Positions 520-16,146 of a stretch of 64,000 nt of DNA are shown one piece after another. The notes beneath the pieces are model-generated. The model was not told the DNA's origin. It saw nothing but the letters and a program-made list of their open reading frames with translations, and made no database searches. Position 1 is the first letter of the stretch. Every line of letters begins with the position of its first letter. The DNA lies in assembly GCA_002710785.1 (NCBI GenBank), contig PAMC01000018.1, forward strand, positions 10,515 through 74,514, written 5' to 3'. The position numbers were made by a program, and so were the translations under genes. This DNA is from a bacterium (GTDB lineage Bacteria; Patescibacteriota; Minisyncoccia; Phycocordibacterales; UBA918).

Positions 520-535
520 ATGATATAGTTGAAGT

Positions 536-1042: not shown

Positions 1043-1045
1043 TGT

Positions 1046-1993: not shown

Positions 1994-2169
1994 AAGAAAA
2001 TACCTAATAAACGTTGGATATTTTCTATTGCTGTTACAAATCACTAACTATCATTGTTCGCTACACTTCAATTCTAGTAAGTGCTCGCGACCCCGACTCA
2101 ACTGTTGCTGAAGCAACATGTTTCCGTCTCCCGCTCAAGCACGAAAGCAAAGTAGTTTGCTTTCTAAAG

Positions 2170-2210
2170 AAATGAGCCGATGCTAAAGCATCGGCTCATT
2201 TCTTTACTCG
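2170..2210 (+). terminator. Intrinsic-terminator-like hairpin after the 1046..1993 gene
   Basis: Perfect 15-bp stem AAATGAGCCGATGCT-aa-AGCATCGGCTCATTT followed by a T-rich tract (tctttac). A second smaller hairpin lies at 2144-2165. Confidence 0.5.
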
Positions 2211-2323
2211 AGCGGGCAAAAAACGTGGCTTTCAGAACTGTATAAGGAGAGGGAGTATATCAAGTCGAGTATTCAAACGCTTCAAGAGCTGCTCGCCTGA
2301 GTCATTTTTGATACAATTCACTG

Positions 2324-2956: not shown

Positions 2957-2958
2957 TT

Positions 2959-3741
2959 ATGGAGAAATTCACACTGCAAAACCGCAAAGGGCAGAATATT
3001 GTCGGCATTCTCGCTAAGCCAGTAGGAGATATTAAAGGCACCTGCGTTTTGCAGCACGGGTGGTCAGGAAAGAAAGAACAAGACCATGTTGTTGCTATCC
3101 AGGAAGCCTTCACCGATAACGGCTGGCAAGTATTTAATTTCGACGCCACCAACTCCTTTAATGAAAGTGATGGGGAGTTTGCAGACTCAAGGCTCGGACT
3201 CCACTACGAAGATATGGAAGATGTGTGTCAGTGGGTACAGCAACAAGATTGGTCCGTTGGTCCATTAGCAGTCTCTGGTCACTCAATGGGTGGCTATGCT
3301 ACCGCTAGATATGCAGAGGACCACCCAGAAGATGTGGCACTCATTGCATCAATCGCACCGGTGGTATCTGGGAAGTTAACGACAGAATCGAAAGAACGGC
3401 GGGAACCGGGAATCATAGCCAAATGGAAAGAAGAGGGTGTACTGGTAAGTGAAAGCTCTACCACACCAGGACTCATCAAGCGAGCACCCTACTCTATCCA
3501 CCAAGAGTGGCTAAATCATGACCTACTACCAAATGCAGACAAGCTCACCATGCCCGTATTTCTGCTGACCGGGACCGATGATGGTTCTTGTCCACCAGAC
3601 CATGTGCAGCAGCTATTTGACGTTATCCCACACGACAATAAGGTATATGAAATTATCGAGGGGGCACCACACACGTACCGCACAGAGGAGGATTTGAAGG
3701 AGGTAAGGGAGCGTTTGAGTAAGTGGCTTAGCGTACAATAG
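2959..3741 (+). CDS. Alpha/beta-fold serine hydrolase
   Basis: GHSMGG nucleophile-elbow motif; 2-nt gap from the upstream gene, so probably operonic. Confidence 0.65.
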   Translation: MEKFTLQNRKGQNIVGILAKPVGDIKGTCVLQHGWSGKKEQDHVVAIQEAFTDNGWQVFNFDATNSFNESDGEFADSRLGLHYEDMEDVCQWVQQQDWSVGPLAVSGHSMGGYATARYAEDHPEDVALIASIAPVVSGKLTTESKERREPGIIAKWKEEGVLVSESSTTPGLIKRAPYSIHQEWLNHDLLPNADKLTMPVFLLTGTDDGSCPPDHVQQLFDVIPHDNKVYEIIEGAPHTYRTEEDLKEVRERLSKWLSVQ

Positions 3742-3745
3742 GAGT

Positions 3746-4219
3746 ATGGATAAACAAGAGGTCACATTCGCTCGCAACTTAGTCAAAGGCAAGATAGCAG
3801 AAACGGTATTTGCCCAGATGCTTCGCTCTACTGGTGAATTTACTGTCTTAGAGTTTGGCTATGAGAAAATCATCCCGGAGTTAGTGAGTCGTGGCAGTCA
3901 CCAGAATGACGACATGGTGGAAGCGCTACGGACCGCCCCTGACTTTGCGGTGATTAATAACAAAACCAAAGAAGTGCATCTAATTGAAGTGAAGTATCGG
4001 CGAGAATTTACTGCTAGTGATGTGCTTCGTATAGCAGAGAGGATGAGTGAGAGCTGGAATCCGTCATACTTATTCTTAGCTACTGAGGATGGCTTCTACT
4101 TTGGGGAGGTGAAGGAAATTATTGCCAACCAGGGTGACATACAGCGACTGGACCATCCACAAATACCCGTAGAAACGCAACAAGAATTTTTACAGATACT
4201 TAACGACTTTGAAGGATAG
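3746..4219 (+). CDS. Hjc-like PD-(D/E)xK nuclease-fold protein
   Basis: Motifs E…PDFAVIN…LIEVKY give E / PD / ExK spacing like archaeal Hjc resolvases and restriction-endonuclease-like folds; 157 aa. Confidence 0.5.
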   Translation: MDKQEVTFARNLVKGKIAETVFAQMLRSTGEFTVLEFGYEKIIPELVSRGSHQNDDMVEALRTAPDFAVINNKTKEVHLIEVKYRREFTASDVLRIAERMSESWNPSYLFLATEDGFYFGEVKEIIANQGDIQRLDHPQIPVETQQEFLQILNDFEG

Positions 4220-4360
4220 GTCGGTCCTGATTTCCACGGATTACTGTTGACTTTGGGTTAGATTTGACTATATTAGGAGGTAACAAGGTCGGCCCCGCTG
4301 CATTCGTGCATGGGCCGGCTTTCTGTTTATATACTGTATTTTTGCTACAATGCGGTGCAA

Positions 4361-5323
4361 ATGGAATCCTACACCAAACCGTTTCTAACAATTGACCAGC
4401 AATTAGATTTGATTGCTTCACGAGGAATGGATATTGGTGACCGTGCGTACGCTGCGGATTGCCTCAAGAACATCGGGTACTATCGCCTCAGCGGCTACTG
4501 GTACCCACTACGAGAATCATCGGTAGTTGAAGACGATGAGGGTAAAAAGACACGGGTGGTCGGAGATTCCTACCGTGACGGCTCCACTTTTAAGCAAGTC
4601 ATAGATATCTACACATACGATAAACACCTCCGGCTCCTGATGCTGGATGTGCTGGAACGAATTGAGATTGCACTGCGTACTGATATTACTCTGCAGATGG
4701 GTCAGTACAGTCCTTGGGCATACAGGGATGGTGACGTTTTGGACCAACGGTTTGTAACTGATGTTACTCCTGGTTTTACTGAATCACGTTTTGCCACATT
4801 CGTGAATCGTTTTGATGATATGGTTGCTCGGTCAAAAAGTGACTTTGTAGACCACTTCAAGAAGAAGTATGAAGACCCGCTACCAATCTGGGCAGCGGTA
4901 GAGTTATGGGATTTTGGAATGTTGTCTGTGTTTCTCTCTGGTATGAAATATCGAGATAAGCGAGCTATTGCAGAGAGGTATGGGGTAAAGCCGGAAATAC
5001 TACCATCTTGGGTTCGTACATTGGCTGACGTACGAAATATCTGTGCGCATCACGGAAGGCTCTGGAACCGCACATTGGTATCCATGCCAAAAACGGCTGG
5101 TATAGAGGTGGATGACTTGAAGCATCTAGACGAAGGGTTTGCTCGGGAGAAGATATACAGTGCGGTAGCCATAGCCCGACACATGCAACGTATCCTCAAC
5201 CCATCTTCTACTTGGGCCGATAGCATCATTAGTCTCAATGAGTCGTTTCCAGCAGCACCCGGTATTGCTTTTAAGCAGATGGGCTACCCAGAGAATTGGC
5301 TAGAGCTGGGTCTGTGGAAGTAG
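4361..5323 (+). CDS. Abortive infection protein, Abi_2 family (AbiD/AbiF-like)
   Basis: N-terminus KPFLTIDQQLDLIASRGMDI…NIGYYRLSGYWYP matches the Abi_2 family signature; start chosen at the internal ATG (MESYTKPF). Confidence 0.7.
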   Translation: MESYTKPFLTIDQQLDLIASRGMDIGDRAYAADCLKNIGYYRLSGYWYPLRESSVVEDDEGKKTRVVGDSYRDGSTFKQVIDIYTYDKHLRLLMLDVLERIEIALRTDITLQMGQYSPWAYRDGDVLDQRFVTDVTPGFTESRFATFVNRFDDMVARSKSDFVDHFKKKYEDPLPIWAAVELWDFGMLSVFLSGMKYRDKRAIAERYGVKPEILPSWVRTLADVRNICAHHGRLWNRTLVSMPKTAGIEVDDLKHLDEGFAREKIYSAVAIARHMQRILNPSSTWADSIISLNESFPAAPGIAFKQMGYPENWLELGLWK

Positions 5324-5390
5324 GTCAGGATTATCTTTGCTTAAACACACCAAGACTACCCAACCAAAATTTCATGGGGTGAGTATAGCA

Positions 5391-5425
5391 AAAAGAAAAG
5401 CCCGCCCCGGTGTGTTGGGGCGAGC
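5391..5425 (-). terminator. Intrinsic terminator for the minus-strand 4-gene operon
   Basis: Stem GCCCGCCCC / GGGGCGAGC with an 8-nt loop. On the minus strand it is followed by a U-tract (the plus strand reads aaaagaaaa). Confidence 0.45.
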
Positions 5426-5448
5426 CAGTAATTCGGTTGTAGGACCGA

Positions 5449-5709
5449 CTAGTTCTGCCGTCGTTCTTCAAGGAGTACGATAGCCGCCGGTTGACCATGG
5501 ACAGCCGGGTCGTAACGCTCAACCAGGGTTAGCTCATCGAAACGAGCCCTCATACCAATCCCGTCGACAAACCCGAACGCATTGGATGCCTTTTCGGGTA
5601 GGTCGGGCGGTTGGTTGAACAGGGTCAATGTCTCCTTAACGTAGAAGCGACCCCGCCTGGCGACAAAGTAGTCACCCTCTGCGAGACTGCCGAATGTGAC
5701 GAAGGGCAT
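5449..5709 (-). CDS. Hypothetical protein (86 aa), last gene of the GC-rich operon
   Basis: ORF 9 nt downstream of the previous gene. The N-terminus MPFVTFGSL weakly recalls the AIG2/GGCT FVYGSL motif; this is unverified. Confidence 0.45.
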   Translation of the reverse strand: MPFVTFGSLAEGDYFVARRGRFYVKETLTLFNQPPDLPEKASNAFGFVDGIGMRARFDELTLVERYDPAVHGQPAAIVLLEERRQN

Positions 5710-5718
5710 TTCGACCCC

Positions 5719-6069
5719 CTACGTCAGAACCAGTTGAGCCGATGAGGGTTTCTCGACCGGCATGAATCCGTTTGTTTCCGTGATAAGCCGAGAGATACGA
5801 CCACCCAGTACCACCATCCGAAAGATAGGTATCCTGACTTTCACGACATACTCCGGCACCCCAGCATCGAACACCGTGGTGGAGTTGATGATGGGCATCC
5901 GAAGCGTTCGCCCGGCATGAGCGAGGGTCACCGAGCGGGTACTCATCATGGCCGTGAAGTCAGCCAGCTCCATGTACTTGGACAGAGACCCGACCTCCTT
6001 GCCGATATACGGCAATACGATGGACGGGATGTACCAGTTGAGAGTCACTTTAACTTGTTTGGGTTGCAT
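5719..6069 (-). CDS. Hypothetical protein (116 aa)
   Basis: ORF 5 nt downstream of the previous gene; no recognisable domain. Confidence 0.5.
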   Translation of the reverse strand: MQPKQVKVTLNWYIPSIVLPYIGKEVGSLSKYMELADFTAMMSTRSVTLAHAGRTLRMPIINSTTVFDAGVPEYVVKVRIPIFRMVVLGGRISRLITETNGFMPVEKPSSAQLVLT

Positions 6070-6074
6070 GTCGT

Positions 6075-6383
6075 TTACTTTCTGATGATTTCAAACTCGC
6101 CGAGGATGACCAGTTTGGGTTCAGCATGAAGCGAAGCCGTTCCGTTTACTGACGGAACAATCCGCTTGATGTCGTGTCCGTGGAATTTCGGGCAACTCAC
6201 CCGAAAGCTGACACCCTCCTCCGGCCCGTAGCCGATGGAGGTGATGGTTCCGCAGATGATGTGGTCTGCCGAGTCACTGAAAATCAGCGTTTGACCCAGC
6301 ACGGCACCGATGAGGTCACCCAAGCCGAGTTTGTTGAGTTCAACCCGGAGTAGTTCAGCTCCAGCCATATTCTTCTCCTTCAT
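6075..6383 (-). CDS. Hypothetical protein (102 aa) with a C-x3-HGH motif
   Basis: The start overlaps the methyltransferase stop by 4 nt (ATGA). CPKFHGHD could be a metal-binding motif; family not recognised. Confidence 0.5.
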   Translation of the reverse strand: MKEKNMAGAELLRVELNKLGLGDLIGAVLGQTLIFSDSADHIICGTITSIGYGPEEGVSFRVSCPKFHGHDIKRIVPSVNGTASLHAEPKLVILGEFEIIRK

Positions 6384-7003
6384 TTCTGGACCAGGACAGA
6401 CATTGCGCCGTCAGCCCAATGATGTGTGGTTGCAAGGACTGTGAAGCCAGATTGCTCCAGCATCGCAGCGAGTTCATCAAGGTCGTAGTGAGCGTGATGC
6501 AGATGGGGTGTGCCATCAGGGTGTTTTTCAAGCTCCTCATGGCTTTCATAAACAGCTGGCATAACCACCATCATGACTCCACCGGTAACCAGTATACGCT
6601 TCAGTCCAGCAAGGACTGTCGGCATATTGTGCTTGGGTTCACCACTGAACGTGCAGCAGCACCACAATCCATCAAACGATGCCTCTGGAAACTCGAGCTT
6701 CCGATAGGACATGAGCTCGAACTGCTGGTCTGGATAGGCGTCTTGAGCCAACCTCACCATCTCGGGCGAGTGGTCGATACCGATGTATTGCAAGCCCTGG
6801 TCGAGAAAGCGGTAGACATAGCGAGCCCAACCACATCCGACATCGAGCATTCGGTCTCCCGGAAGGGCGTCGAAGAAGGCTTGTAGGTCGGCATCTGGTT
6901 CTTCACCCTTCCACTGTGTCCAAGTTGGACTCTTGGCAAAGTCATCGGCATATGCAACGCCGAGACGTTCCGCCAGGTCTGGGTCAACGTTTGTATCGTT
7001 CAA
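6380..7003 (-). CDS. Class I SAM-dependent methyltransferase
   Basis: Motif I MLDVGCGWARY. Start reassigned to TTG at 7003 (MNDTNVDPDLAERLG…), preceded by AAGGGAGAG, which resembles a ribosome-binding site. The longer annotated N-terminus looks like non-coding read-through. Confidence 0.6.
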   Translation of the reverse strand: MNDTNVDPDLAERLGVAYADDFAKSPTWTQWKGEEPDADLQAFFDALPGDRMLDVGCGWARYVYRFLDQGLQYIGIDHSPEMVRLAQDAYPDQQFELMSYRKLEFPEASFDGLWCCCTFSGEPKHNMPTVLAGLKRILVTGGVMMVVMPAVYESHEELEKHPDGTPHLHHAHYDLDELAAMLEQSGFTVLATTHHWADGAMSVLVQK

Positions 7004-7123
7004 GTTTCTCTCCCTTGTAAAGGTGCAATTGTGTACTTGTGTTCGAGTCGAACAATGCCACAAATCCTTTTGTTTTTCAATAAAAATCTCCCTCACGCTG
7101 AACGATTGTTGTCTCCCAGAACA

Positions 7124-7129
7124 TTGACA
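7124..7129 (+). promoter_or_regulatory. TTGACA -35-like hexamer upstream of 7178..7732
   Basis: Exact TTGACA about 48 nt before the start codon; no convincing -10 at canonical spacing. Confidence 0.2.
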
Positions 7130-7177
7130 GAACAAAGTTTTATTATACAGTATTTATAGCAAAAAGGAGCTCCTATC

Positions 7178-7732
7178 ATGATTAAGTTCTTCAATCCCAG
7201 CGACCTCGGACACAAGGCGGTCTACGCCGTCTATTTGCTGGCCTGCGCTCTGTTTCCGGCATACCCGATGCAGCGGTATCTCAAAGAGAAAACTGGTCGC
7301 GGTTTCCTCGGACCGGCAGAATGGTCCATACTGGCGTTGTCCAGTATCGGGACAGTCTCAATCTATGGGACGCTGTTCTACTACTTGGGTTGGCCTTCAA
7401 TTTCGGTCATCCTTCCGTTCCAGGTCTTTGTGGCAGCATACGCATCAGTCAGTGCTTGCTGGATTACCGGACTCTACGTCTTCATCGTACTGAGTTCGAA
7501 TTGGCTGCCGTGGTTCAGCTTCAGAAAAATCGCTGTCGCAGAAAGGTTCACAGGTGGCAAGACCGAATACATCCTCGCTCGTGGCCTGTACTGGCGGCGT
7601 AGCCCTCCCGGCAAGTACTACACAGAGCGGCAGCCGTGGGGAGGTATCCCCAAAGGCTGGCGGGTAGCAGAGCCATCAACAGCCGAAGGAGAAAGGATAA
7701 GTGCTGCATTAAAAGCTGCACTGAAGGCCTAA
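7178..7732 (+). CDS. Integral membrane hypothetical protein
   Basis: Multiple hydrophobic helices; an intrinsic terminator follows immediately. Confidence 0.5.
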   Translation: MIKFFNPSDLGHKAVYAVYLLACALFPAYPMQRYLKEKTGRGFLGPAEWSILALSSIGTVSIYGTLFYYLGWPSISVILPFQVFVAAYASVSACWITGLYVFIVLSSNWLPWFSFRKIAVAERFTGGKTEYILARGLYWRRSPPGKYYTERQPWGGIPKGWRVAEPSTAEGERISAALKAALKA

Positions 7733-7758
7733 TACTCTCAGGCACCCTCACGTTATTG

Positions 7759-7787
7759 GCTGGTCCTCCATAGGGCCAGCTTTTTTC
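7759..7787 (+). terminator. Intrinsic terminator
   Basis: GCTGGTCC-tccata-GGGCCAGC followed by TTTTTT. Confidence 0.55.
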
Positions 7788-7790
7788 TAT

Positions 7791-7821
7791 ACAAACGCCC
7801 CAGTTACCGGAAACTGGGGCG
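7791..7821 (-). terminator. Hairpin downstream of the minus-strand M23-like gene
   Basis: 10-bp stem CGCCCCAGTT / AACTGGGGCG; only a weak U-tract on the minus strand. Confidence 0.4.
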
Positions 7822-7842
7822 GACGCGTATTGTTGTATCGGG

Positions 7843-8451
7843 TTAGACCCACAGAGGAACAAGGCTCTTGAAGCCAAAAGGGCTAGGGTTGCGGTCAAGT
7901 CGAAACACGATGAAGTGAAGGTGGTCACGGTCAGTCAGTCCGGTTTTCCCGACAACACCGATGACCTGCCCTGCTCGCACTGCAGCTCCCTGATGTACTC
8001 CAGCATCACGGACCGAATTCTTCGCCAAATGGCAGTATTGAGTGAATTCAGTCGGGGTATGTTGGATGGTGATGTAGTTCAGCTTATCTCGGAAACTGAT
8101 ATCATCACCCCACTCGTCAGAGTGCTCTTGCACCTCAACCACCATTCCGCCTGAAGCGGCCAGGACTGGAGTTCCATCAAGGACCAAGAAATCAATGGCA
8201 TTCTTGAAAGCAGCTCGGTGTGTCAGTGGACTTTTGGCACACAGGTAATGCGCCGTGTGATACAGCTCATCAGCTGGTATGCCGTCCTTCAATGCTTCTG
8301 CGTGACGCACAGCCTCGTCAGGTGTCACATTGAGCGGAAGACGGTATGTCTCTTTGCTCACTTCATCATCCCACATCGGGTCGTCAGCCCAACGGTCAAT
8401 ATCGTCCATTTCGATACTCCTAAATTGTCCACGTTCGGTTTTCATTTCCAA
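7843..8451 (-). CDS. Peptidase M23 (LytM)-like protein, no signal peptide
   Basis: YITIQH…YCHL…GQVIGVVGKTGLTDRDHLHF fits the M23 HxxxD / HxH motifs. Confidence 0.6.
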   Translation of the reverse strand: MEMKTERGQFRSIEMDDIDRWADDPMWDDEVSKETYRLPLNVTPDEAVRHAEALKDGIPADELYHTAHYLCAKSPLTHRAAFKNAIDFLVLDGTPVLAASGGMVVEVQEHSDEWGDDISFRDKLNYITIQHTPTEFTQYCHLAKNSVRDAGVHQGAAVRAGQVIGVVGKTGLTDRDHLHFIVFRLDRNPSPFGFKSLVPLWV

Positions 8452-8490
8452 GTACGAAAACTAACACAAATACTATAAAGTTACTATTTA

Positions 8491-9063
8491 TCAATGTTTT
8501 CTTCGTATAAGCAAAAGTGCCACAAACAAACCATTGGCAATGCCCCAAGCAGCCGGAAACAAGCTGGTTAGGATTGAATAGTGAGATAAAGCGGCAACAC
8601 TGAGTAAGTGCCTAAATGAGTTAATAGCGTAAGTAGATATAGTCTCAGTGTGAGGTCTATTCCAAGATTTACGAATGGTCGGTATAAAACCAAGCATGCC
8701 AACTGTTACAAGTAGAATCATTGCGGTAACTGGTTGTTTTGCCAACAGCCACAATCCTAGAGCGACCAACGCTGCTAAAAAGAAAAGGGTGTCAGACCGG
8801 GTAATATCTTTATCGCCTTGGCGCATCCCCAGTACAAAAATACATAGTGATATAGAACCTGCTACTAGGGTTACCCATGCACCTGGACCTGCATCATCAC
8901 TAAGCTGAAGGGCAAAGATGATTATCGTAATGAGACCCCATACAAATCAAGTATATACATGTGGCTTTGTTTTTCCTTTTAGCACGTCACGCAAGTATGG
9001 AATGTAACCAACAACTCCAAGAATGACAGTTATGACCCCTATTATTTCCTTAATTTCAAGCAT
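8491..9063 (-). pseudogene. Small multi-TM membrane protein whose frame is interrupted by a single in-frame TGA (plus 8947-8949). It may instead be two separate small ORFs.
   Basis: The 38-aa ORF MLEIKEIIGVITVILGVVGYIPYLRDVLKGKTKPHVYT ends in a TGA that is in frame with the downstream 111-aa membrane ORF (annotated 8491..8826). The second ORF has no ATG for ~50 codons after the TGA. Confidence 0.35.
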
Positions 9064-9127
9064 AATATTTGTAACAATGCTAACACAACAAAAGCCACAC
9101 ACCCGCGGGGTGTATGGCTTTAATAAT

Positions 9128-9682
9128 TTAGCTTTTAAGTTGTTGTATTAACTCACTCGCATCCTCCTTAGACATCGTATCCAAGTTGCCGAGCATCTGG
9201 TTCTTCTCATCTTCATCGGTAACCTTGGTGTCGATTAACTGGGTTAGGTAGCGTTTCTGAGCATCTGAAGCTTGGTAGGTAGCAGCGGAGTAACTGTCAC
9301 TTTGTAGCCCAAAGCTCGGTACGGGACCAGCTTCCTCGGCAGCAAAGGCGTTGGGGAATTTACCAGCCCGAACACACGCATCTGTTAGTGCACTCGAAAA
9401 AGCAAATTTAACCGAGTTACTAATATACCGATTGGACTGTGACAGGACCGACATGCCCCGACCTTGCCCAATTACCCGACCACCAATCTTTAAGGTACAA
9501 AGGTAGGCAATGAGTCCAGGGTGATTAAACACGGTACTGGTCTGCATATCCTCTTCAAAGGTGGCGGTAATATCGTAGACTCCTAAGTGTTTCTCTATCT
9601 CCTCACGGATTGGATGCTTCGCTGGCTGTTGTGGTTGCACTGTTGCATAACTCCTTGGTTTAGTAGTTGTTGCATTATTCAT
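9128..9682 (-). CDS. Hypothetical protein (184 aa), third gene of the ArdC-like operon
   Basis: Its ATG overlaps the stop of the upstream small ORF (tTAA/ATG arrangement); no recognisable domain. Confidence 0.5.
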   Translation of the reverse strand: MNNATTTKPRSYATVQPQQPAKHPIREEIEKHLGVYDITATFEEDMQTSTVFNHPGLIAYLCTLKIGGRVIGQGRGMSVLSQSNRYISNSVKFAFSSALTDACVRAGKFPNAFAAEEAGPVPSFGLQSDSYSAATYQASDAQKRYLTQLIDTKVTDEDEKNQMLGNLDTMSKEDASELIQQLKS

Positions 9683-9851
9683 GATTATTTAGTTTGTTTA
9701 GTCTCTTGATAATTACGGTTTTGGGTTTAATGGTGACGGAAATAATGTCGCCTAACGAAAAACCAGCGGTAGCCAGTCGACTATCACTGATTCGTATACA
9801 TGGCTCATCCTTGGCTCTACGCTCGGACACCACGGTCATTTGGCGAGTCAT
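9675..9851 (-). CDS. Small AbrB/MazE/SpoVT-like DNA-binding protein (58 aa); absent from the supplied ORF track
   Basis: Hand translation gives MTRQMTVVSERRAKDEPCIRISDSRLATAGFSLGDIISVTIKPKTVIIKRLNKLNNHE, which has the swapped-hairpin pattern (R-I/V…LG…GD-I…V…K…IIK). ATGA overlap with the upstream stop; TAA overlaps the downstream ATG. Confidence 0.45.
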   Translation of the reverse strand: MTRQMTVVSERRAKDEPCIRISDSRLATAGFSLGDIISVTIKPKTVIIKRLNKLNNHE

Positions 9852-10180
9852 GCTGGTTTGTGGTTAGCAATAGGTTCCGTCTGACTGATGTGGAAGAGGT
9901 TGATACTTCTTCGCCTTGTTTGCTTCTCTCCGGTCTCTGGGTCTTCTGATTCGATTAGAGTGTAGCTTTGGATAGCCTTGGCTCCTTTCTTTACGCTGTA
10001 CCCGTTACGTCGCCAAGCTGCAAAACTCATACAGCTATGGTACGGGTCGTAGGTGGCAGCGTACTCTGGCCCTAGCTCTGGGTGTTCGGCTATTGCTTGC
10101 CTCACGGCTTCAGCGGTCTTCTCAGAACCCAGATATGGTGACACTGGGCGGTCTGATAATACTTCTTGTACCTTTTTCAT
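9848..10180 (-). CDS. ArdC N-terminal-like ssDNA-binding domain protein (110 aa)
   Basis: FAAWRRNGYSVKKGAKAIQ resembles the ArdC-N (DUF1738) F-x-x-W…G…V-[KR]-KG-[EA]-K-[GA] signature common on conjugative elements. Confidence 0.45.
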   Translation of the reverse strand: MKKVQEVLSDRPVSPYLGSEKTAEAVRQAIAEHPELGPEYAATYDPYHSCMSFAAWRRNGYSVKKGAKAIQSYTLIESEDPETGEKQTRRRSINLFHISQTEPIANHKPA

Positions 10181-10533
10181 AGTGTTTATGTGTGCCGCAC
10201 TGGATGCATCTGCAGTGCAGGTAGGAGTGGCTTATGTTTAATTCCTAGCCTAACCCCCTAGTAATAAGACCCAGGCTACATAGGTGGGTACCCGGGCAGT
10301 GGTTCGGTTAGGGAAGTTACAGAGTAAGGAACTATGTAATACGGGGTACTAACGCAGTTTTGTGTATTTTTTGGTCTTACCCAAGAGACGAAAAAGTTGT
10401 TGACGGGTCTTTTACCAAGGGGGTATAAAAATGCATCAAATACGTTGCTAAATATAGCTTTTTGCTTGGTAGGTAGATTTTTCTTTACTTTACCTAGTAC
10501 ACACAGAAGGGTAGCTGGTATCTGCCTGGTAAT

Positions 10534-10557
10534 TCTCCCCCTCCTTATAGGGGGAGA
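10534..10557. repeat. Inverted repeat TCTCCCCC-tccttata-GGGGGAGA in the intergenic region upstream of the replication module
   Basis: 8-bp perfect arms seen directly. Confidence 0.5.
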
Positions 10558-10714
10558 TTACCAAGGAGCCAACCCCCACCACCGTGTTCATAAATATTCT
10601 GTAGCCAGGGTAATTCACCAGAACCATCAGCCGAGCGTGAGATTTTTTAGTTGAGCATTTTGGTACTCTGCTAAATTAGTACGTACCACATGAAGTGGTA
10701 ATAGCTTGCGTACT

Positions 10715-10840
10715 ATGAACACAACGACTATATTAGTGACACGGGAGTGCTCGGTCTGCGGCTACAAATGGCTGCCTCGAGTACCAAACCCAAAAAAATG
10801 CCCTTGTTGCCAAGCACGCCTTGAAGACGAGTTGGCATAG
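10715..10840 (+). CDS. Small zinc-ribbon protein (41 aa); absent from the ORF track
   Basis: MNTTTILVTRECSVCGYKWLPRVPNPKKCPCCQARLEDELA has CxxC…CxxC; it sits just upstream of the primase, as is common in phage/plasmid replication modules. Confidence 0.4.
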   Translation: MNTTTILVTRECSVCGYKWLPRVPNPKKCPCCQARLEDELA

Positions 10841-10936
10841 TTGAGGAACGGGACAATCAAAAGTTAATTATTATTTGGGACAAAAAGAATACCCGCAGCA
10901 ACGGGCATTCGGCTCTTAAATATTGAATTGACTTGT

Positions 10937-12967
10937 ATGAATAGTAACACAGTCCCAAACGGCAGTCCTCTGACTGACCAAGAAATTATTACAAACGCAG
11001 TAGAAACACTCACTGGTGACCGAGCCCAATGGGTAATTTGGCAATATCAGGAACGTGAAGACGGAGGTAAGCCAGGCAAAATTCCGATTGGTATTTATGG
11101 TGAAGCAGCTAAAGTTTCAGACAATTCCACCTGGCTACACTACGATGATGCAAAACGCCTCTGTGATGAGCATGATTTAGATGGTGTAGGCATTATGTTT
11201 GACGGCAGCTTCCTGGGCGTAGACCTAGATAATTGCGTTGAGGATGGAGATATCACAGACCCAGTTGTGGCAGCATTTGTAGCCATCGCAGATACATATA
11301 CAGAGATTTCGCCGAGCGGCACTGGACTCCACCTATTCTTCAAACTAGCAGGACCTTACAAGGCTAAGAAAAATCGACACGGTAGTTACGAAGTGTATAC
11401 CAACGACCGGTACTTCACATTTACCGGCCACCTATTCAATCAAAACCTCGTACGGACAGTAACTCCCAAAGAAGTGGAACGCTTACTAGAGGCTATTGGC
11501 TACCCCTGGAATCCCGTTGAATCAGCAGTCGACAGTGTGGTCCTTGGTAATACTACAAACCTAGACCAAGAGATTGCCAAGGAGAAGATGTTTAGCTCAA
11601 AGCACGGGGCCGAAATCGAAGCCCTCTATAACGGTGACACGTCAGCCTACGGTGGGGATGTCTCAAAAGCCGAGGCTGCCTTAGTGAAACACGCAGCACA
11701 CTGGTTTAGTGACCGTGAAGCGGTGCAGGAGTTTTGGTTGCAATCACCGCTAGCCCAACGAGATAAGACGCAAGGACGAGTAGATTACCAAGAACGTACC
11801 CTTGATTTTGCGTTGCAGGACTCCTCTGGGTCACCAACACCAGAATTCACCATTAATGACACAGACAACAGTAAATTGGGTCCACGGGAAATCTTCGCCC
11901 AAGCTGAAACCGACCTCGAAGACTTTTTGAAACTCGATGGTGAAACGGACTGGTTAGTGGACCGACTGGTTACCAAGGGGTCACTTAATATGATTGCTTC
12001 ACCGCCAGCCCAAGGGAAGACGTTTATGGCTCTTAATATTGCTTTGGCAGTGGCGTTTGGTGAGCCTCTATTCGGTAAATTCAATGTACCTGACGCCGCT
12101 AACGTACTGGTTGTGAACGAGGAAGATACTGAGAATGAGCTATCTGGTCGTTTGCAGAGTATGGTGTCAAAGGGTGCGGTACGGGGTAAAATCAAGCTCT
12201 ACTGCAACACTGGACTCAAAGTGAACAAGGATTGGTCAGACGGGCTTTTAGAGCGTGCTAAGGCCAATAATGCGGGTCTGGTAATTCTCGATAACCTAGC
12301 TGTGCTGAGTTTGGCTAACGAAAATGACGCCCAAGCGGTACAGGAAGTAATGGAGCAGTTTCGGCGGTTCACTCGTGCTGGTATTACAGTTATCTTCATT
12401 CACCACGACCGCAAGGGGCAGCCAGGAGAATCAGGTGGTAATCAATCACTTGATAGTGCTCGTGGGTCTGGAGTGATTCCAGCAGCAGTTCATGGCTATC
12501 TCAGTGTCCGAACTGCCAAGAACAACACCTTTGTAGTATCGCAACGGAAGCTAAAAGCCAACAGTCCAAAAGTGAAGGACTTCGTGATTCAGATGCACAC
12601 TGATATCACAAAGGGTAAGCAATTTCGTTTTCGGTTTGAGTATATCGGTGAGTACGACCCAGACCTCAACGCTGCCGAGAACCTAGAGACTAGGATTGTA
12701 TCCCTCAGTCAAGAGTACGGCACAAAATACTACTTCACCAAGAAGACGTTGGTTGGTCGTGGTTTCGCTACTCGACCAGATGACAAGAGTCTTGTGAGTG
12801 CACTAAAGAGTTTGGTGGCCAAAGGTTTGCTACAGGTGAATCAGTATAAGGACCTAGGCGAACCAGAAAAGGAACTCGTTGACGATACAGTGAAAGTGGG
12901 TAATGCCGCAGTGTATTGGTTTGCGTCAGACAGCTTAGTAGAGGATGTGGCTAATATTCCTTTCTAG
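10937..12967 (+). CDS. Bifunctional DNA primase/polymerase (PrimPol) fused to a P-loop helicase-type (AAA_25/RepA-like) domain
   Basis: PrimPol N-terminal motifs (GIMFDGSFLGVDLDNC, SPSGTGLHLFF); Walker A ASPPAQGKTFMALNIA; Walker B VILDNLAV. ATG at 10937 is preferred over TTG at 10928. Confidence 0.8.
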   Translation: MNSNTVPNGSPLTDQEIITNAVETLTGDRAQWVIWQYQEREDGGKPGKIPIGIYGEAAKVSDNSTWLHYDDAKRLCDEHDLDGVGIMFDGSFLGVDLDNCVEDGDITDPVVAAFVAIADTYTEISPSGTGLHLFFKLAGPYKAKKNRHGSYEVYTNDRYFTFTGHLFNQNLVRTVTPKEVERLLEAIGYPWNPVESAVDSVVLGNTTNLDQEIAKEKMFSSKHGAEIEALYNGDTSAYGGDVSKAEAALVKHAAHWFSDREAVQEFWLQSPLAQRDKTQGRVDYQERTLDFALQDSSGSPTPEFTINDTDNSKLGPREIFAQAETDLEDFLKLDGETDWLVDRLVTKGSLNMIASPPAQGKTFMALNIALAVAFGEPLFGKFNVPDAANVLVVNEEDTENELSGRLQSMVSKGAVRGKIKLYCNTGLKVNKDWSDGLLERAKANNAGLVILDNLAVLSLANENDAQAVQEVMEQFRRFTRAGITVIFIHHDRKGQPGESGGNQSLDSARGSGVIPAAVHGYLSVRTAKNNTFVVSQRKLKANSPKVKDFVIQMHTDITKGKQFRFRFEYIGEYDPDLNAAENLETRIVSLSQEYGTKYYFTKKTLVGRGFATRPDDKSLVSALKSLVAKGLLQVNQYKDLGEPEKELVDDTVKVGNAAVYWFASDSLVEDVANIPF

Positions 12968-12968
12968 T

Positions 12969-13163
12969 ATGTCTAACACTACTCTGGCACATAAAATTTG
13001 CATTGCGTATCGCCATTTATTCAATGTACGTGAGTCACAACCACTAAACGCTGGCACCATTAGTGCTATGGAAGAGCTTGGATTAATCCTGAAACCAATC
13101 TACCAGCGAATGCGAAAAGAAGGCTGGGTATTACAAAATGGTAAACTAACAAAACATGAGTAA
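12969..13163 (+). CDS. Small hypothetical ORF between primase and recombinase
   Basis: Fills the gap; 64 aa; no domain; could be Xis/RDF-like but there is no evidence. Confidence 0.25.
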   Translation: MSNTTLAHKICIAYRHLFNVRESQPLNAGTISAMEELGLILKPIYQRMRKEGWVLQNGKLTKHE

Positions 13164-14892
13164 ATCACCGAAGAAGGACGCAGTCGAACGAGAAACATTT
13201 GCAGCTATTGAGCGTGGTGATTTTAAGGAGTGTTACCTGATTTATAACCGCAAAAGTAGCGATGAAGCGGATAGTCAAAAGAATTCGATTGAGTTTCAGA
13301 ATGCAGAAAGTATGCGCTTTGCTGCACGAGAATCGCTTCCAGTAGCTGGAATTACTATCACAGGGCTGTGTAATAACGGCTCCATCTCTGAACGACATTC
13401 TGGTTTTAAGGAAGATGAAAACTTTGTGATTTCTTCTGATGGTAAGGTAACGTACCAGATTGACCGACCAAAGTTTCAGCGGTTATTGCAGTTGGTTAAT
13501 CAGGGTTACATCAAAGGTGTCATTTGTCTTTGTTGGGACCGTATCAGCCGAAACAAATCTGATGATGCTATCGTTCGTAAGCTAATGAAGAAAGGGGTGG
13601 ATATTCGCTTCGTACATGCTCACTACGACGACAGCAGTGCCGGAGAGCTCCATATGGATATCGACGGTATGTTTGCGCAACATCACTCCCGGGTGACTAG
13701 TGAAAAGGTCCGTTTGAGTAAGGTAAACAGTCGCAGTCAGGGTAAGTGCACATACCGTGCTCCAATCGGCTATCTCAATGAAGGTAATATGGACTGGAAG
13801 CCATTCGACCCTGAACGAGCACCGATGGTGAAGGAGATGTTTGAACTATATGCTACAGGTGATTGGAGTCTGTCTGATTTAACACGACACGCTCGTAAAA
13901 TTGGTTTAACTGCACCACCAATGCGACGACGTCGTACCAAAGAGGAGATGCTGGCAGACGAGGAAGTACGACTGGAGAAAGTCACCAGTCCGATTCAGCA
14001 AGGATACATGGCCCAGATTCTCAAGAACAAGTTTTACATTGGCTACATCATTGGTAACAACGGTAAAGCTGGTGAGTGGGTGAAGAGTGAAAGCCATGAG
14101 CCACTTGTTGATGAGAAATTGTTTAACAAGGTTCAGGCTCTATTGGGTAAGAAGAACGTCAGCACACACTACACGGAGAAGTTGGACTATCCATTGCGTG
14201 GGATTATGCGGTGTTCCTGCTGTGGGCGAATCTATACTCCGTACGTGAAGAAGGGAAACCAGTACTACTACAGTCGCTGCAAAGATGGGTGCACTAATAA
14301 AATGAAGAATTTGCATTACACTTATGTAGTAGAAAAAGTACGGAAGTTGGTTTCCGGTCTGCACTTTACCGATGACGAGCTGGAAGAATTTGAAAGCCGA
14401 GCTGGGACGGATATCGCTCTTTTGGAGAACAAGCGTGACCGTGAAATGGAGGTTATCGAACGCAAGAAAAAGAAAGTGCGTGATGAATTAGCATATTTAC
14501 GCTCTGAGCGGGTACAGTTGCTAAAAACAGGTGTATTCACTCCTGAAGGGTACGTAGAGGAGACAAATAGGCTGGAGGGTGAGATTGATGATTTGCAGAC
14601 TGAGGAGCAGGTATCTGAGGAAGCAATGCGAGAGCTAATGAAGGAAGTGGTACATCTTTCAGAACTACTAAAAAACGTTGTGCCTATTTACGATTACGCC
14701 AATCCGCAAGAAAAAGAGAAAATTATCCGAGCTATCTTTTCAGAACTCTCGTTTTCTCACGATACGTTGCAATATAAGGTTAAAAAAGGGTTTGAAACCT
14801 TTGATAAGCGTATTTCTGCTTTTTGCGGGCCCACGTGGACTCGAACCACGGCCGCTGGTTTTGGAGACCAGAATTCTACCACTAAACTATAG
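13156..14892 (+). CDS. Large serine recombinase (integrase); 3' end overlaps tRNA-Trp on the opposite strand
   Basis: Catalytic YNRKSSDEADSQ (compare YxRVSTDEQ), DRISR motif, recombinase-domain APIGYLNEGN, zinc ribbon CSCCGR…C…C, C-terminal coiled coil. Confidence 0.8.
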   Translation: MSKSPKKDAVERETFAAIERGDFKECYLIYNRKSSDEADSQKNSIEFQNAESMRFAARESLPVAGITITGLCNNGSISERHSGFKEDENFVISSDGKVTYQIDRPKFQRLLQLVNQGYIKGVICLCWDRISRNKSDDAIVRKLMKKGVDIRFVHAHYDDSSAGELHMDIDGMFAQHHSRVTSEKVRLSKVNSRSQGKCTYRAPIGYLNEGNMDWKPFDPERAPMVKEMFELYATGDWSLSDLTRHARKIGLTAPPMRRRRTKEEMLADEEVRLEKVTSPIQQGYMAQILKNKFYIGYIIGNNGKAGEWVKSESHEPLVDEKLFNKVQALLGKKNVSTHYTEKLDYPLRGIMRCSCCGRIYTPYVKKGNQYYYSRCKDGCTNKMKNLHYTYVVEKVRKLVSGLHFTDDELEEFESRAGTDIALLENKRDREMEVIERKKKKVRDELAYLRSERVQLLKTGVFTPEGYVEETNRLEGEIDDLQTEEQVSEEAMRELMKEVVHLSELLKNVVPIYDYANPQEKEKIIRAIFSELSFSHDTLQYKVKKGFETFDKRISAFCGPTWTRTTAAGFGDQNSTTKL

Positions 14893-14896
14893 GCCC
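14826..14896 (-). tRNA. tRNA-Trp (anticodon CCA)
   Basis: Hand-folded. Acceptor GGGCCTA/TGGGCCC (one G-U pair), D-arm GTTT-AGTGGTA-GAAT, anticodon stem CTGGT/ACCAG with loop CTCCAAA, T-arm CGTGG-TTCGAGT-CCACG, discriminator G. The CCA end is not encoded. Confidence 0.75.
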
Positions 14897-14936
14897 ATCT
14901 ATAAATATAAATCTACTACACAGGCCCAGTTGTGGC

Positions 14937-14952
14937 GAGACCAGAATTCTAC
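14937..14952. repeat. 16-nt copy of the tRNA-Trp anticodon-arm segment (gagaccagaattctac)
   Basis: Exact repeat of 14864-14879. Confidence 0.5.
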
Positions 14953-15031
14953 TTGAGCAAACGAGGAAGGAATGAGAGCTTGCTCGCATTCATCTTCCGA
15001 GTGCAGGTCAAGCAAGAAATCTATAATTTCT

Positions 15032-15051
15032 TACCACTAAACTATAGGCCC
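15032..15051. repeat. 20-nt exact copy of the tRNA-Trp 5' end (taccactaaactataggccc)
   Basis: Exact repeat of 14877-14896; lies ~135 nt beyond the intact tRNA 5' end. Confidence 0.55.
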
Positions 15052-15163
15052 GGAAATTGCCCGGGAGGCAATTTCAGTTCTGTTACTCAGAATCTGAAAT
15101 AAGTTCTCCCAGCTACATTACTCACGTAAGTGCGCTACATAGTAGGCGATAGGCCAGAGAAAA

Positions 15164-16060
15164 TCAATCCTCAAGCCAGTTGGTAACTAATTTTTGTGCA
15201 GCGCCCACAGTGTCTGGTTGTAGCCAATTGACCTCGTCATTCTTCTGTAGCCAGGTGAGTTGGCGCTTCGCGTACTGCCAGTTTTTGGCGAGAAATTGCT
15301 CCACAAACTGCTCGTTGGTGAGCTCGCCTTGGACCCACGCGGCACCAATGGTGTACTCAAAGCCAAATTCAGCCAGTCGCTCTGGCGTGCAGTCTTGAGC
15401 TAGTAGCCACGCCACTTCATCTTTAAAGCCACCATGGAGCCATGAGTTAGCTCGCTTCGTGATTCGCTCACGCAAGTCGTCTTTGCTGCGTTCAGTGCCG
15501 AGCCAGAGGGTGTCGTACAGTTCTTCGGTAGGGATAGCTGGTACGTGACCAATTGCGGCTACAATCTCCAGCGCTCTAATAAGTCGCCGTTTATTGTTTG
15601 GGTCGATGGTGGCTGCGCGAGCGCTATCGCGCTCGCGCAGCTCAGCGTGGAGGTCCTCAGTAGACATCTTCTCGAGCTTCCCTCGCAATGTTGGGTTGGG
15701 TGCCACCTCGGGCATACTCAAGCGACCAAGCAGGAGGTCGACGTAGAAAAACGTACCACCCGCAATAATTGGCAGCTTGCCGCGAGCGGTAATGTCGGCA
15801 ATGGCCGCACGGCCGTCGCGCACGAAATCAGCTGCGGTGTACACGTCGCTGATATCGACCACGTCAATGAAGTGGTGGGGTACACCCTGCATCTCCTCTT
15901 TGGTTACCTTAGCGGTACCAATATTAAGCTTCCGATACACCTGCCGACTGTCAGCCGAAATGACCTCCCCGTCAAACTGCTTGGCCAGCTCAACCGCCAA
16001 GCCAGTTTTACCCGAAGCAGTAGCCCCGACAATCACCAATACTTTTTGCTTGTCACTCAT
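15164..16060 (-). CDS. miaA: tRNA dimethylallyltransferase
   Basis: P-loop GATASGKT, DSRQVYR motif, full-length similarity to the MiaA pattern. Confidence 0.85.
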   Translation of the reverse strand: MSDKQKVLVIVGATASGKTGLAVELAKQFDGEVISADSRQVYRKLNIGTAKVTKEEMQGVPHHFIDVVDISDVYTAADFVRDGRAAIADITARGKLPIIAGGTFFYVDLLLGRLSMPEVAPNPTLRGKLEKMSTEDLHAELRERDSARAATIDPNNKRRLIRALEIVAAIGHVPAIPTEELYDTLWLGTERSKDDLRERITKRANSWLHGGFKDEVAWLLAQDCTPERLAEFGFEYTIGAAWVQGELTNEQFVEQFLAKNWQYAKRQLTWLQKNDEVNWLQPDTVGAAQKLVTNWLED

Positions 16061-16061
16061 T

Positions 16062-16146
16062 TGGTGCCTCGGGAGGGAGTCGAACCCTCATGGCTTGCGC
16101 CATGCGATTTTGAGTCGCACGTGTATACCAATTCCACCACCGAGGC
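16062..16146 (-). tRNA. tRNA-Leu (anticodon CAA), CCA encoded
   Basis: Hand-folded. Acceptor GCCTCGG/CCGAGGC, anticodon stem TGCGA/TCGCA with loop CTCAAAA, long variable arm, T-arm GAGGG-TTCGACT-CCCTC, A-CCA end. Confidence 0.8.

What the first reader, a model, noticed from the sequence alone, without database searches (positions are those of the whole stretch)
14826..15051. tRNA-Trp overlapped by the recombinase 3' end and trailed by a fragmented second tRNA-Trp copy
The serine recombinase reading frame runs antisense through 67 nt of tRNA-Trp before reaching a stop. Just beyond the tRNA 5' end lie two exact fragments of the same tRNA, a 16-nt anticodon-arm piece at 14937-14952 and a 20-nt 5' piece at 15032-15051. 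About 80 nt of unrelated sequence separates them. This looks like a disrupted or decayed tRNA copy. It could be a scar of integration and excision at this tRNA, or a displaced target-site fragment.
Basis: seen in the sequence. Interest (0 to 1): 0.55.

Follow-up and report, generated by a model that had tools for sequence, protein, structure and literature searches.

The report
Recombinase gene split by own integration
A 12.6-kb mobile element sits at the very end of a tRNA-Trp gene, and its recombination site lies inside its own recombinase gene, so insertion swaps the enzyme's last 27 amino acids for tRNA-antisense sequence; the nearby broken tRNA copy is an older chromosomal relic this element did not make.

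Summary
tRNA-Trp(CCA) lies at 14826-14896 (-). The large serine recombinase (LSR) ORF 13156-14892 (+) overlaps it by 67 nt. Exact copies of tRNA nt 18-33 (14937-14952) and nt 1-20 (15032-15051) flank a 79-nt insert.

Metagenome contigs of the same organism give both occupied and empty alleles. They define a 12.6-kb element (2218-14824) bounded by a 6-bp core, GCGGGC, at the last bases of the tRNA. The element's attP lies inside the LSR ORF. In the circular form the ORF would end in QKTWLSELYKEREYIKSSIQTLQELLA, which is now stranded at 2217-2300. Integration replaces this with 20 residues of tRNA antisense.

The layout recurs across the family. A second two-ended case targets tRNA-Glu, and about 79 of the best 120 homologues end in tRNA-antisense tails, against 23 with the conserved tail.

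The fragmented copy is present in empty alleles, so this element did not create it. Its 5' end sits exactly where a relative's intact tRNA-Trp begins. It is a 155-bp relic unit, present once or twice in the population, and its origin is unresolved.

Whether the tail swap regulates recombination is untested.

The parts
14826..14896 (-). Intact host tRNA-Trp(CCA), no encoded CCA. It is the attB target and is present unchanged in empty-site alleles.
13156..14892 (+). Large serine recombinase ORF in its integrated form (578 aa). Residues 1-558 are element-encoded. The last 20 residues (PTWTRTTAAGFGDQNSTTKL) are read from the antisense strand of the tRNA.
14825..14830 (.). attR core GCGGGC, covering tRNA acceptor positions 71-72, the discriminator and +1. 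The reconstructed attP reads TTTTTGC-GG-GCAAAAA, a palindrome around GG (14827-14828), the inferred crossover dinucleotide.
2212..2217 (.). attL core GCGGGC, the only tRNA-derived sequence at the far boundary of the element.
2217..2300 (+). Displaced native 3' end of the recombinase gene: 27 codons (QKTWLSELYKEREYIKSSIQTLQELLA) plus the stop. It is in frame with codon 558 across the reconstructed attP.
2218..14824 (.). Integrated element of about 12.6 kb, G+C mostly 0.43-0.48 (0.50-0.55 over about 5000-8000) against 0.53-0.59 in the flank to the right. It carries S51 peptidase, an alpha/beta hydrolase, Abi_2, a methyltransferase, M23 peptidase, an AAA_25 helicase with a weak, sub-threshold primase-polymerase-like match (NrS1-1_pol-like_HBD), a small conserved ORF and the LSR.
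12945..13163 (+). 72-aa ORF overlapping the LSR start. It is conserved upstream of the LSR in all relatives examined (motif LS..T..ALEELG.VLK.I..RM..EGY.I..G). It is a candidate accessory or directionality factor with no Pfam match.
2165..2206 (.). Perfect 20-bp hairpin that directly follows the tRNA in empty-site alleles. It is inferred to be the tRNA and pilin-gene terminator, and integration separates it from the tRNA.
15032..15051 (-). Fragment A, an exact copy of tRNA-Trp nt 1-20. It starts at the position where the intact tRNA-Trp starts in relative L109.
14953..15031 (-). 79-nt hairpin-forming insert between the two fragments, bounded by a 3-nt GTA duplication. It has no other copy, no terminal inverted repeats and no Rfam match.
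14937..14952 (-). Fragment B, an exact copy of tRNA-Trp nt 18-33. Identity ends after the first anticodon base.
14897..14936 (-). 40-nt spacer between fragment B and the intact tRNA. Its 3' part is AT-rich (TTTATATTTATAGAT) and is inferred to be the tRNA's promoter region.
14897..15051 (-). 155-bp unit (spacer, B, insert, A) bounded by the 20-bp direct repeat. It is present once in the window and in most contigs, and twice in tandem in L002/L006 and L007.
15053..15075 (.). Hairpin GAAATTGCC..GGCAATTTC downstream of miaA. It is conserved in L109, where the tRNA follows it directly.

Best explanation
Two separate things sit side by side.

(1) The overlap. A 12.6-kb integrative element of a Patescibacteria-type marine bacterium uses a large serine recombinase whose attP lies inside its own coding sequence, 27 codons before the stop. 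attB is the last bases of tRNA-Trp. Recombination within the shared GCGGGC keeps the tRNA intact. It also fuses recombinase codons 1-558 to the antisense strand of the tRNA, giving 20 foreign residues and then a stop. The native 27-codon tail is stranded 12.6 kb away at the other junction. Excision would rejoin the full 585-aa gene. All of this is shown by sequence.

Inferred: the conserved tail, predicted to be helical, makes the enzyme differ between the free and integrated states. I think the most likely role is to tune recombinase directionality, activity or stability. Integration also removes the tRNA's terminator hairpin, so tRNA read-through could run antisense into the recombinase gene.

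(2) The fragments. The broken tRNA copy is a chromosomal relic that predates this insertion. The ancestral tRNA-Trp began directly after the miaA hairpin. In this lineage a 155-bp segment bounded by a 20-bp repeat of tRNA nt 1-20 now separates that position from the working gene. The left-over 5' part (nt 1-33) is itself split by a 79-bp insertion with a GTA duplication. Unequal recombination between the 20-bp repeats gives alleles with one or two units.
For: Occupied and empty alleles with at least 99.9% identical flanks: attR in 6 distinct contigs, attB in 4.

The junction sequences give the 6-bp core and the reconstructed attP. The frame continues into a 27-aa tail.

That tail is homologous to the C-termini of 23 of the best 120 homologues (W[LIVM]SE motif followed by more conserved positions). 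About 79 homologues instead end in tRNA-antisense peptides.

Six of six tested tRNA-type genes end inside an antisense tRNA: Trp in the window, L096 and L097; Glu-CTC in L103/L104, L105 and L106/L107.

L106 is a second two-ended example. It has a 10-bp core GTGACCCCAC, and the tail DPTAWLSELVRSSDYIKSSINALELLVK is encoded at its far end just after a hairpin with a T-run, read as a terminator.

Native-tail genes carry the same core uninterrupted. L100 has TGCGGGCAAAAA, as in the window.

Between the window and L100, the distal tail shows synonymous changes with the residues conserved.

The AF2 model puts a low-confidence linker at the core-encoded residues, then helices 556-562 and 565-587 at pLDDT about 80. 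The fold matches SPbeta, phiC31, Bxb1 and LI integrases.

The extreme C-terminus of SprA and helices docked between DBD2 and the coiled coil are reported to affect LSR directionality (PMC11722253).

Fragments: they are present in empty alleles. L109 places its intact tRNA exactly at the start of fragment A. L097 and L108 have the tRNA directly after miaA with no fragments.
Against: No excised circle was found. The exact 585-aa protein is absent from the 15-billion-sequence collection, and the attP 28-mer is absent from viral contigs.

The native-tail homologues examined (L098, L100-L102) sit inside larger contigs rather than on demonstrably free circles. They show that the tail is ancestral, not that it marks the excised state.

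The invariant TGGCTTTCAGAACT may be conserved as an attP arm rather than for the protein (five sequences only).

Nothing tests whether either isoform is active.

For the fragments, no allele with zero units or with a larger insert was found, and neither the insert nor the spacer has a recognisable source. The event that made the unit is therefore inferred, not reconstructed.
Confidence: 0.78

Rival explanations
1. The fragments are a scar or displaced target-site piece left by integration or excision of this serine-recombinase element.
For: They lie within 160 nt of the recombinase's target tRNA. Partial tRNAs are common att remnants beside integrative elements (10.1101/2020.12.28.424599).
Against: The fragments are identical in four element-free contigs. 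The element's core is 6 bp at the tRNA 3' end, while the fragments are nt 1-33 on the opposite side of the tRNA. Relatives whose tRNA-Trp carries a homologous LSR element (L096, L097) have no fragments.
Confidence: 0.03
2. The 155-bp unit is the shrunken remnant of a different integrative element. That element would have recombined with the 5' part of tRNA-Trp (identity block nt 1-20 or 1-33), supplied a new promoter for the tRNA, and later lost its interior.
For: The unit is bounded by 20-bp direct repeats, as an att-flanked insert would be. Identity of fragment B stops in the anticodon loop, which I recall is a classic tyrosine-integrase crossover position (my own knowledge, not checked here; position read). 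The spacer next to the intact tRNA is AT-rich and promoter-like. Tandem two-unit alleles resemble tandem integrations.
Against: No integrase, and no larger version of the insert, was found in any allele. No other copy of the insert or spacer exists in the window, the fetched loci or the metagenome scan. From my own knowledge, replacement of a tRNA 5' end is rare among known elements. The 79-nt split still needs a second event.
Confidence: 0.3
3. The 155-bp unit is a functional structured RNA or regulatory module, such as a leader or processing hairpin or a promoter cassette for tRNA-Trp, rather than a relic.
For: The region folds into a long hairpin (-49 kcal/mol, z = -4.0, 0 of 200 shuffles as stable) in which both tRNA-derived pieces are paired. 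The tRNA-derived pieces are exact and the unit is identical in all contigs.
Against: There is no Rfam match and no promoter consensus. The unit is absent from every relative examined, so there is no conservation or covariation to support a structure. Copy number varies between one and two. All contigs are one near-clonal population, so identity among them says nothing about selection.
Confidence: 0.1
4. The tail swap has no regulatory meaning. attP merely overlaps the last codons because the element is compact, and both isoforms work the same or the tail is dispensable.
For: Catalytic, recombinase, zinc-ribbon and coiled-coil regions all lie upstream of the junction. The invariant WLSEL codons could be an attP arm read as DNA. 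The replacement peptides are simply whatever the tRNA antisense encodes.
Against: The tail is conserved for about 25 residues, beyond the roughly 25 bp that, from my own knowledge of serine-integrase attP sites, an attP arm would span. It changes at synonymous sites while keeping its residues. It is retained in relatives that are not next to a tRNA. It is predicted to be a confident helix. C-terminal elements are reported to affect LSR directionality.
Confidence: 0.4

Closest known systems
Large serine integrases of temperate phages and mobile elements (phiC31, Bxb1, SPbeta SprA, Listeria A118/LI)
   Same: The domain order is the same: resolvase catalytic domain, recombinase domain, zinc ribbon with an inserted coiled coil. 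The full-length fold matches their solved complexes. attP and attB share only a very short stretch (6-10 bp). A small conserved ORF lies upstream, as an RDF might.
   Different: There is no sequence-level match to any solved LSR and no close relative in phage or plasmid collections. attP lies inside the enzyme's own ORF. attB is the extreme 3' end of a tRNA. An extra conserved C-terminal helix is exchanged on integration.
SSV-type ('suicidal') tyrosine integrases of archaeal viruses and plasmids (PMC7253208, PMC8371274)
   Same: The recombination site lies within the integrase ORF and the target is a tRNA gene, so integration splits the integrase gene (abstract).
   Different: Those are tyrosine recombinases, and the gene is cut into two pseudogene halves. 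Here a serine recombinase loses only its last 27 codons and keeps every recognised domain.
Integration-dependent immunity of mycobacteriophages BPs, Brujita and Charlie (Broussard 2013, as reviewed in PMC9262239)
   Same: attP lies in the 3' part of a coding gene and attB overlaps a tRNA 3' end. Integration gives a protein with a different C-terminus, and that difference is the switch.
   Different: In those phages the gene is the repressor, the enzyme is a tyrosine integrase, the common core is about 35 bp, and the lost piece is an ssrA-like degradation tag. Here the gene is the recombinase itself and the tails share no consistent tag-like ending.
Partial tRNA repeats flanking tRNA-targeting islands such as tycheposons (10.1101/2020.12.28.424599)
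   Same: A partial tRNA copy lies beside an intact tRNA that serves as an integration hotspot.
   Different: The partial copy here is the 5' part, lies on the side of the tRNA away from the element, exists without the element, and is itself split by a 79-bp insert.

Membership tests
Large serine recombinase (serine integrase) | N-terminal resolvase-type catalytic domain with the serine nucleophile | tested here: met
   PF00239 E = 1.1e-15. The YNRKSS motif is read. R30 and S32 are invariant in 35 homologues.
Large serine recombinase (serine integrase) | Recombinase domain followed by a zinc-ribbon domain with four cysteines | tested here: met
   PF07508 E = 3.3e-12. PF13408 is weak (19.6 bits, below the cut-off of 25.3). 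C348, C351, C370 and C374 are invariant.
Large serine recombinase (serine integrase) | Long coiled-coil motif inserted in the zinc-ribbon domain | tested here: met
   AF2 predicts helices 401-445, 458-480 and 482-508, then the closing beta-hairpin 523-537. This is a prediction only.
Large serine recombinase (serine integrase) | Overall fold like solved LSR-DNA complexes | tested here: met
   Foldseek finds SPbeta 9y66/9dxh (E about 2e-14), phiC31 9rah, Bxb1 9iu2 and LI 4kis. There is no sequence-level PDB hit.
Large serine recombinase (serine integrase) | Short att sites that recombine at a 2-bp central dinucleotide without long attP/attB identity | tested here: inconclusive
   The shared cores are only 6 bp (window) and 10 bp (L106). 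GG at the centre of the attP palindrome is inferred. The cleavage position cannot be mapped from sequence.
Site-specific integrative element at a tRNA gene | Occupied and empty alleles that differ by exactly the element, with direct repeats at both junctions and the tRNA kept intact | tested here: met
SSV-type self-splitting integrase | att site inside the integrase ORF | tested here: met
SSV-type self-splitting integrase | Tyrosine recombinase whose gene is cut into two non-functional parts | tested here: not met
   This is a serine recombinase, and only the last 27 of 585 codons are displaced.
Integration-dependent immunity system | attP within the repressor gene, with loss of an ssrA-like tag on integration | tested here: not met
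   The split gene is the recombinase. Tail endings vary (..ELLA..LLVK..DRAA..DSVN) with no consistent tag.
att-remnant partial tRNA of the resident element | The fragment corresponds to the element's core and appears only when the element is or was inserted | tested here: not met
   The core is at the tRNA 3' end, the fragments are nt 1-33, and they are present in empty alleles.
MITE or insertion sequence (for the 79-nt insert) | Terminal inverted repeats and multiple copies | tested here: not met
   No terminal inverted repeats were seen on reading. There is no second copy in the window, in fetched loci or in the metagenome scan. Only the 3-bp GTA duplication fits.

The most novel reading that the evidence does not exclude
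This uncharacterised clade of large serine recombinases, found mainly in candidate-phyla-radiation bacteria, carries a built-in sensor of integration state. Because attP is inside the gene, the free element makes an enzyme with a conserved C-terminal helix, while the integrated element makes one without it. That helix would act in cis on the zinc-ribbon and coiled-coil switch to set direction (integration versus excision) or protein stability. Such a toggle would be partly or wholly independent of a separate directionality factor.
Probability: 0.3. Interest if true: 0.8.

Novelty: new variant of a known kind. Interest (0 to 1): 0.6.

Why it matters
Serine integrases are widely used genome-engineering tools, and how their direction is controlled is an active structural question. 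A natural family that makes two C-terminal isoforms, depending only on whether the element is integrated, offers a simple test of whether a cis-acting tail can set direction or stability. It also shows serine integrases targeting tRNA 3' ends while keeping the tRNA intact with only 6-10 bp of shared sequence. That behaviour is usually associated with tyrosine integrases.

There is a practical point for annotation. The roughly 20 C-terminal residues of many database entries for this family are tRNA antisense, not recombinase, and the true gene end lies at the other end of the element. That makes element boundaries easy to find.

The fragmented tRNA copy is of minor interest. It records an older rearrangement at an integration hotspot and varies in copy number within the population.

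Tried and rejected
- I searched the window for a further copy of the tRNA 3' half. None exists; only the 6-bp core is at the far boundary.
- I looked for the excised circle. The exact 585-aa protein is not in the protein collection. The attP 28-mer is not in viral contigs.
- I found no relatives of the recombinase in IMG/VR or phage records, and only 23-29% identical recombinases in plasmids.
- I tested whether the 79-nt insert is a repeated mobile element. A 25-mer from it occurs only at this locus in the metagenome scan. There is no other copy in the window or in 90 fetched loci, and no Rfam family matches.
- I tested whether the spacer or insert is a decayed continuation or inverted copy of the tRNA. 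Local alignments are no better than shuffles, with p about 0.1 or worse.
- One 17/18 match of the spacer at 11254-11271 (E = 0.006) lies inside the AAA_25 helicase ORF (10928-12967). I treat it as chance.
- The GTDB scan with miaA found only distant relatives, at most 57% identical. They keep the order tRNA-Leu, miaA, tRNA-Trp but have no fragments.
- The consensus promoter scan found nothing upstream of either tRNA copy.
- Native-tail homologues turned out to lie in larger islands, not on circles. They could not be used as proof of an excised form.
Full report
**1. The observation**

ARAGORN places tRNA-Trp(CCA) at 14825-14896 on the minus strand. Rfam's tRNA model scores 65.5 bits at 14826-14896. 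The ORF 13156-14892 (+) encodes 578 aa with Resolvase (E = 1.1e-15), Recombinase (E = 3.3e-12) and a weak zinc-ribbon match, so it is a large serine recombinase (LSR). It overlaps the tRNA by 67 nt.

The tRNA's first 20 nt recur exactly at 15032-15051, and nt 18-33 recur exactly at 14937-14952. Neither is expected by chance. The pieces are separated by 79 nt, and both carry GTA (nt 18-20).

**2. What surrounds it**

To the right lie core genes: miaA (15164-16060, -), tRNA-Leu, parB, relA/spoT and topA. To the left, G+C is lower over most of the stretch from about 2000 to 15000 (0.43-0.48, rising to 0.50-0.55 across about 5000-8000), against 0.53-0.59 to the right. That stretch holds an AAA_25 helicase with a weak, sub-threshold primase-polymerase-like match, an Abi_2 protein, a methyltransferase, peptidases and the LSR.

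The closest miaA genes in species-level genomes are at most 57% identical and belong to Paceibacteria and Saccharibacteria MAGs. The host is therefore a poorly sampled marine Patescibacteria-type bacterium.

**3. Element boundaries**

Exact-protein look-ups of the LSR and of miaA returned metagenome contigs of the same organism. BLAST against the window and direct reading show two alleles.
- Four distinct contigs (L008, L009, L012, L014) join window 16104..14825 directly to window 2217..1.
- Six distinct contigs carry the element, as the window does.

Both junctions carry GCGGGC (2212-2217 and 14825-14830). On the tRNA strand this is acceptor positions 71-72, the discriminator and the next base. 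The element is therefore 2218-14824, about 12.6 kb, and the tRNA is regenerated intact.

In the empty allele a perfect 20-bp hairpin (2165-2206) follows the tRNA. Integration moves it 12.6 kb away. No terminator-like site was found on the tRNA strand inside the LSR gene end. Antisense read-through into the LSR gene is therefore possible, but this is inferred.

**4. Why the ORF runs into the tRNA**

Joining the element's two ends gives the following attP:

...TTTCTGCTTTTTGC-GG-GCAAAAAACGTGGCTTTCAGAACTG...

It is palindromic around GG. This site lies inside the LSR frame. Across it, codon 558 continues into QKTWLSELYKEREYIKSSIQTLQELLA and a stop, encoded at 2217-2300. In the integrated state that tail is replaced by PTWTRTTAAGFGDQNSTTKL, read from the tRNA antisense.

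**5. The same layout recurs across the family**

The LSR has 972 homologues at E ≤ 1e-10, and among the best 120 a few are named, as Parcubacteria MAG proteins. After a conserved ..KKGFE.F..R...C(D/G) motif, the best 120 split as follows:
- 23 have a tail P(T/I)AWLSEL....R..I...I..L, like the one reconstructed here.
- About 79 have tRNA-antisense peptides, for example PTGNRTPINGLKSRRPNR.
- 18 are truncated or different.

All six tRNA-type genes whose DNA I examined end inside an antisense tRNA. The target is tRNA-Trp in the window, L096 and L097, and tRNA-Glu(CTC) in L103/L104, L105 and L106/L107.

L106 has both ends on one contig. It has a 10-bp core GTGACCCCAC at 11661 and at 2544, and the tail DPTAWLSELVRSSDYIKSSINALELLVK is encoded at the far end just after a hairpin with a T-run, which I read as a terminator.

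Native-tail genes (L098, L100-L102) carry the same cores uninterrupted. L100 shares TGCGGGCAAAAA with the window. They sit in larger islands with no adjacent tRNA. They show that the tail is an ancestral part of the protein, not that it marks free circles.

The codons TGG CTT TCA GAA CT are identical in all five sequences, including synonymous positions. That suggests they double as an attP arm. Further along the tail, synonymous changes occur while the residues stay conserved, which points to selection on the protein.

A conserved small ORF precedes the LSR in every relative examined.

**6. Structure**

An AF2 model of the native-tail homologue P0008 has mean pLDDT 76.8. It shows:
- the coiled coil at 401-508;
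- the closing beta-hairpin at 523-537;
- a low-confidence linker at 548-555, which are the residues encoded by the att core;
- helices 556-562 and 565-587 at pLDDT about 80.

Foldseek matches full-length SPbeta, phiC31, Bxb1 and LI integrase structures. Sequence searches of the PDB find nothing.

Published work reports that the extreme C-terminus of SprA, and helices docking between the second DNA-binding domain and the coiled-coil hinge, affect directionality (PMC11722253). On that basis I propose that the exchanged tail tunes direction, activity or stability. This is inference, and no data here test it.

**7. The fragmented copy**

It is present, base for base, in the empty alleles, so this element did not make it. 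The element's core is at the other end of the tRNA.

Relatives with homologous LSR elements in tRNA-Trp (L096, L097) have no fragments. The same is true of the relative L108.

The key comparison is L109. Its DNA downstream of miaA is 90% identical to the window over 99 nt, including the hairpin GAAATTGCCTCCC(A/G)GGCAATTTC. Its intact tRNA-Trp begins exactly where fragment A begins. Fragment A therefore marks the ancestral start of the gene.

Relative to that state, this lineage has gained 155 bp bounded by a 20-bp direct repeat. The gain consists of the 79-nt insert, tRNA nt 18-33 and a 40-nt AT-rich spacer. Two contigs (L002/L006 and L007) carry two tandem units, as expected from unequal recombination between the 20-bp repeats. 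No contig has zero units.

The region folds into a long hairpin (z = -4.0). However, it has no Rfam match and no other copy anywhere searched. It also has no significant similarity to the rest of the tRNA.

I read it as a relic, either of a local rearrangement or of an older element that recombined with the tRNA's 5' part. I cannot decide between these two.

**8. Comparison with what is known**

A recombination site inside the integrase gene is known for archaeal SSV-type tyrosine integrases, where it splits the gene in two (PMC7253208). A C-terminal change caused by an intragenic attP at a tRNA is the basis of integration-dependent immunity in mycobacteriophages. There it acts on the repressor and uses a tyrosine integrase (PMC9262239).

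I found no report of either feature for serine integrases in eight full-text searches. That is absence from one library, not proof of novelty. I classify the finding as a new variant of a known kind.

**9. Verdict**

The overlap is real, and an intragenic attP explains it (confidence about 0.9). The family-wide tail exchange is well supported. Its regulatory role is a hypothesis (about 0.3-0.6, depending on how strictly it is stated). The fragmented copy is an older chromosomal relic of uncertain origin (about 0.6 for a relic at the ancestral position).

Noticed in passing
L108 about 3430-3460: About 1.1 kb downstream of its tRNA-Trp, this relative carries, on the opposite strand, CTTTCAGAACTGTATGAGGAGCGGGAG. 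This matches the window's displaced recombinase tail DNA (2231-2257) at 25 of 27 positions. It looks like the scar of a decayed element of the same family.
   Followed up: partly
L106 4557-4629: A tRNA-Arg(TCT) gene lies inside the tRNA-Glu-targeting element (between the cores at 2544 and 11661), so that element carries its own tRNA.
   Followed up: no
proteins P0015, P0019, P0075, P0092: A third recurrent C-terminus, C(D/E)E(I/L)(I/L)T(F/L)(A/G)RT.F(E/Q), is neither the native tail nor an obvious tRNA antisense. It may mark a different, non-tRNA integration target.
   Followed up: no
L015, L018, L021, L029 versus L016, L017, L097, L108, L109 and the window: The order tRNA-Leu(CAA), miaA, tRNA-Trp(CCA) is conserved across distant relatives, but tRNA-Trp flips orientation relative to miaA in several of them. 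This suggests repeated inversions at this hotspot.
   Followed up: no
L108 2270-2343, L109 7030-7102: The two closest miaA relatives have a clearly different tRNA-Trp sequence (..TTTAATTGGTAAAACAGCGGACTCCAAA..) from the window, although L109 shares 90%-identical upstream DNA. The tRNA may have been replaced in one lineage.
   Followed up: partly
L109 5432-6004: A LAGLIDADG-type ORF sits between tRNA-Leu and miaA in this relative. In the window the two genes abut (16060/16062).
   Followed up: no
window 11254-11271: A 17/18 match to the first 18 nt of the 40-nt spacer (GCCACAACTGGGCCTGTG) lies inside the element's AAA_25 helicase ORF (E = 0.006). It is probably chance.
   Followed up: partly
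window 29631-29726: tRNA-Gln (29644-29715) is embedded in a 20-nt inverted repeat (29631-29650 / 29707-29726). The repeat extends the acceptor stem by more than 10 bp into the leader and trailer.
   Followed up: no
window 32515-33757: Three repeat families with the same 899-nt spacing at 73-78% identity indicate two tandem paralogous genes.
   Followed up: no
window 24940-24979: A perfect 40-bp palindrome (20-nt arms, no loop). It also appears in L007.
   Followed up: no
window 14973-15041 (+): The 79-nt insert contains GAGGAAGG followed by an ATG, opening a 22-codon ORF (MRACSHSSSECRSSKKSIISYH) that ends in fragment A. It is likely chance.
   Followed up: no
L011: This contig is 99.98% identical to the window over 12501-17164, but no recombinase gene was called on it. 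A single difference may disrupt the ORF in that sample.
   Followed up: no
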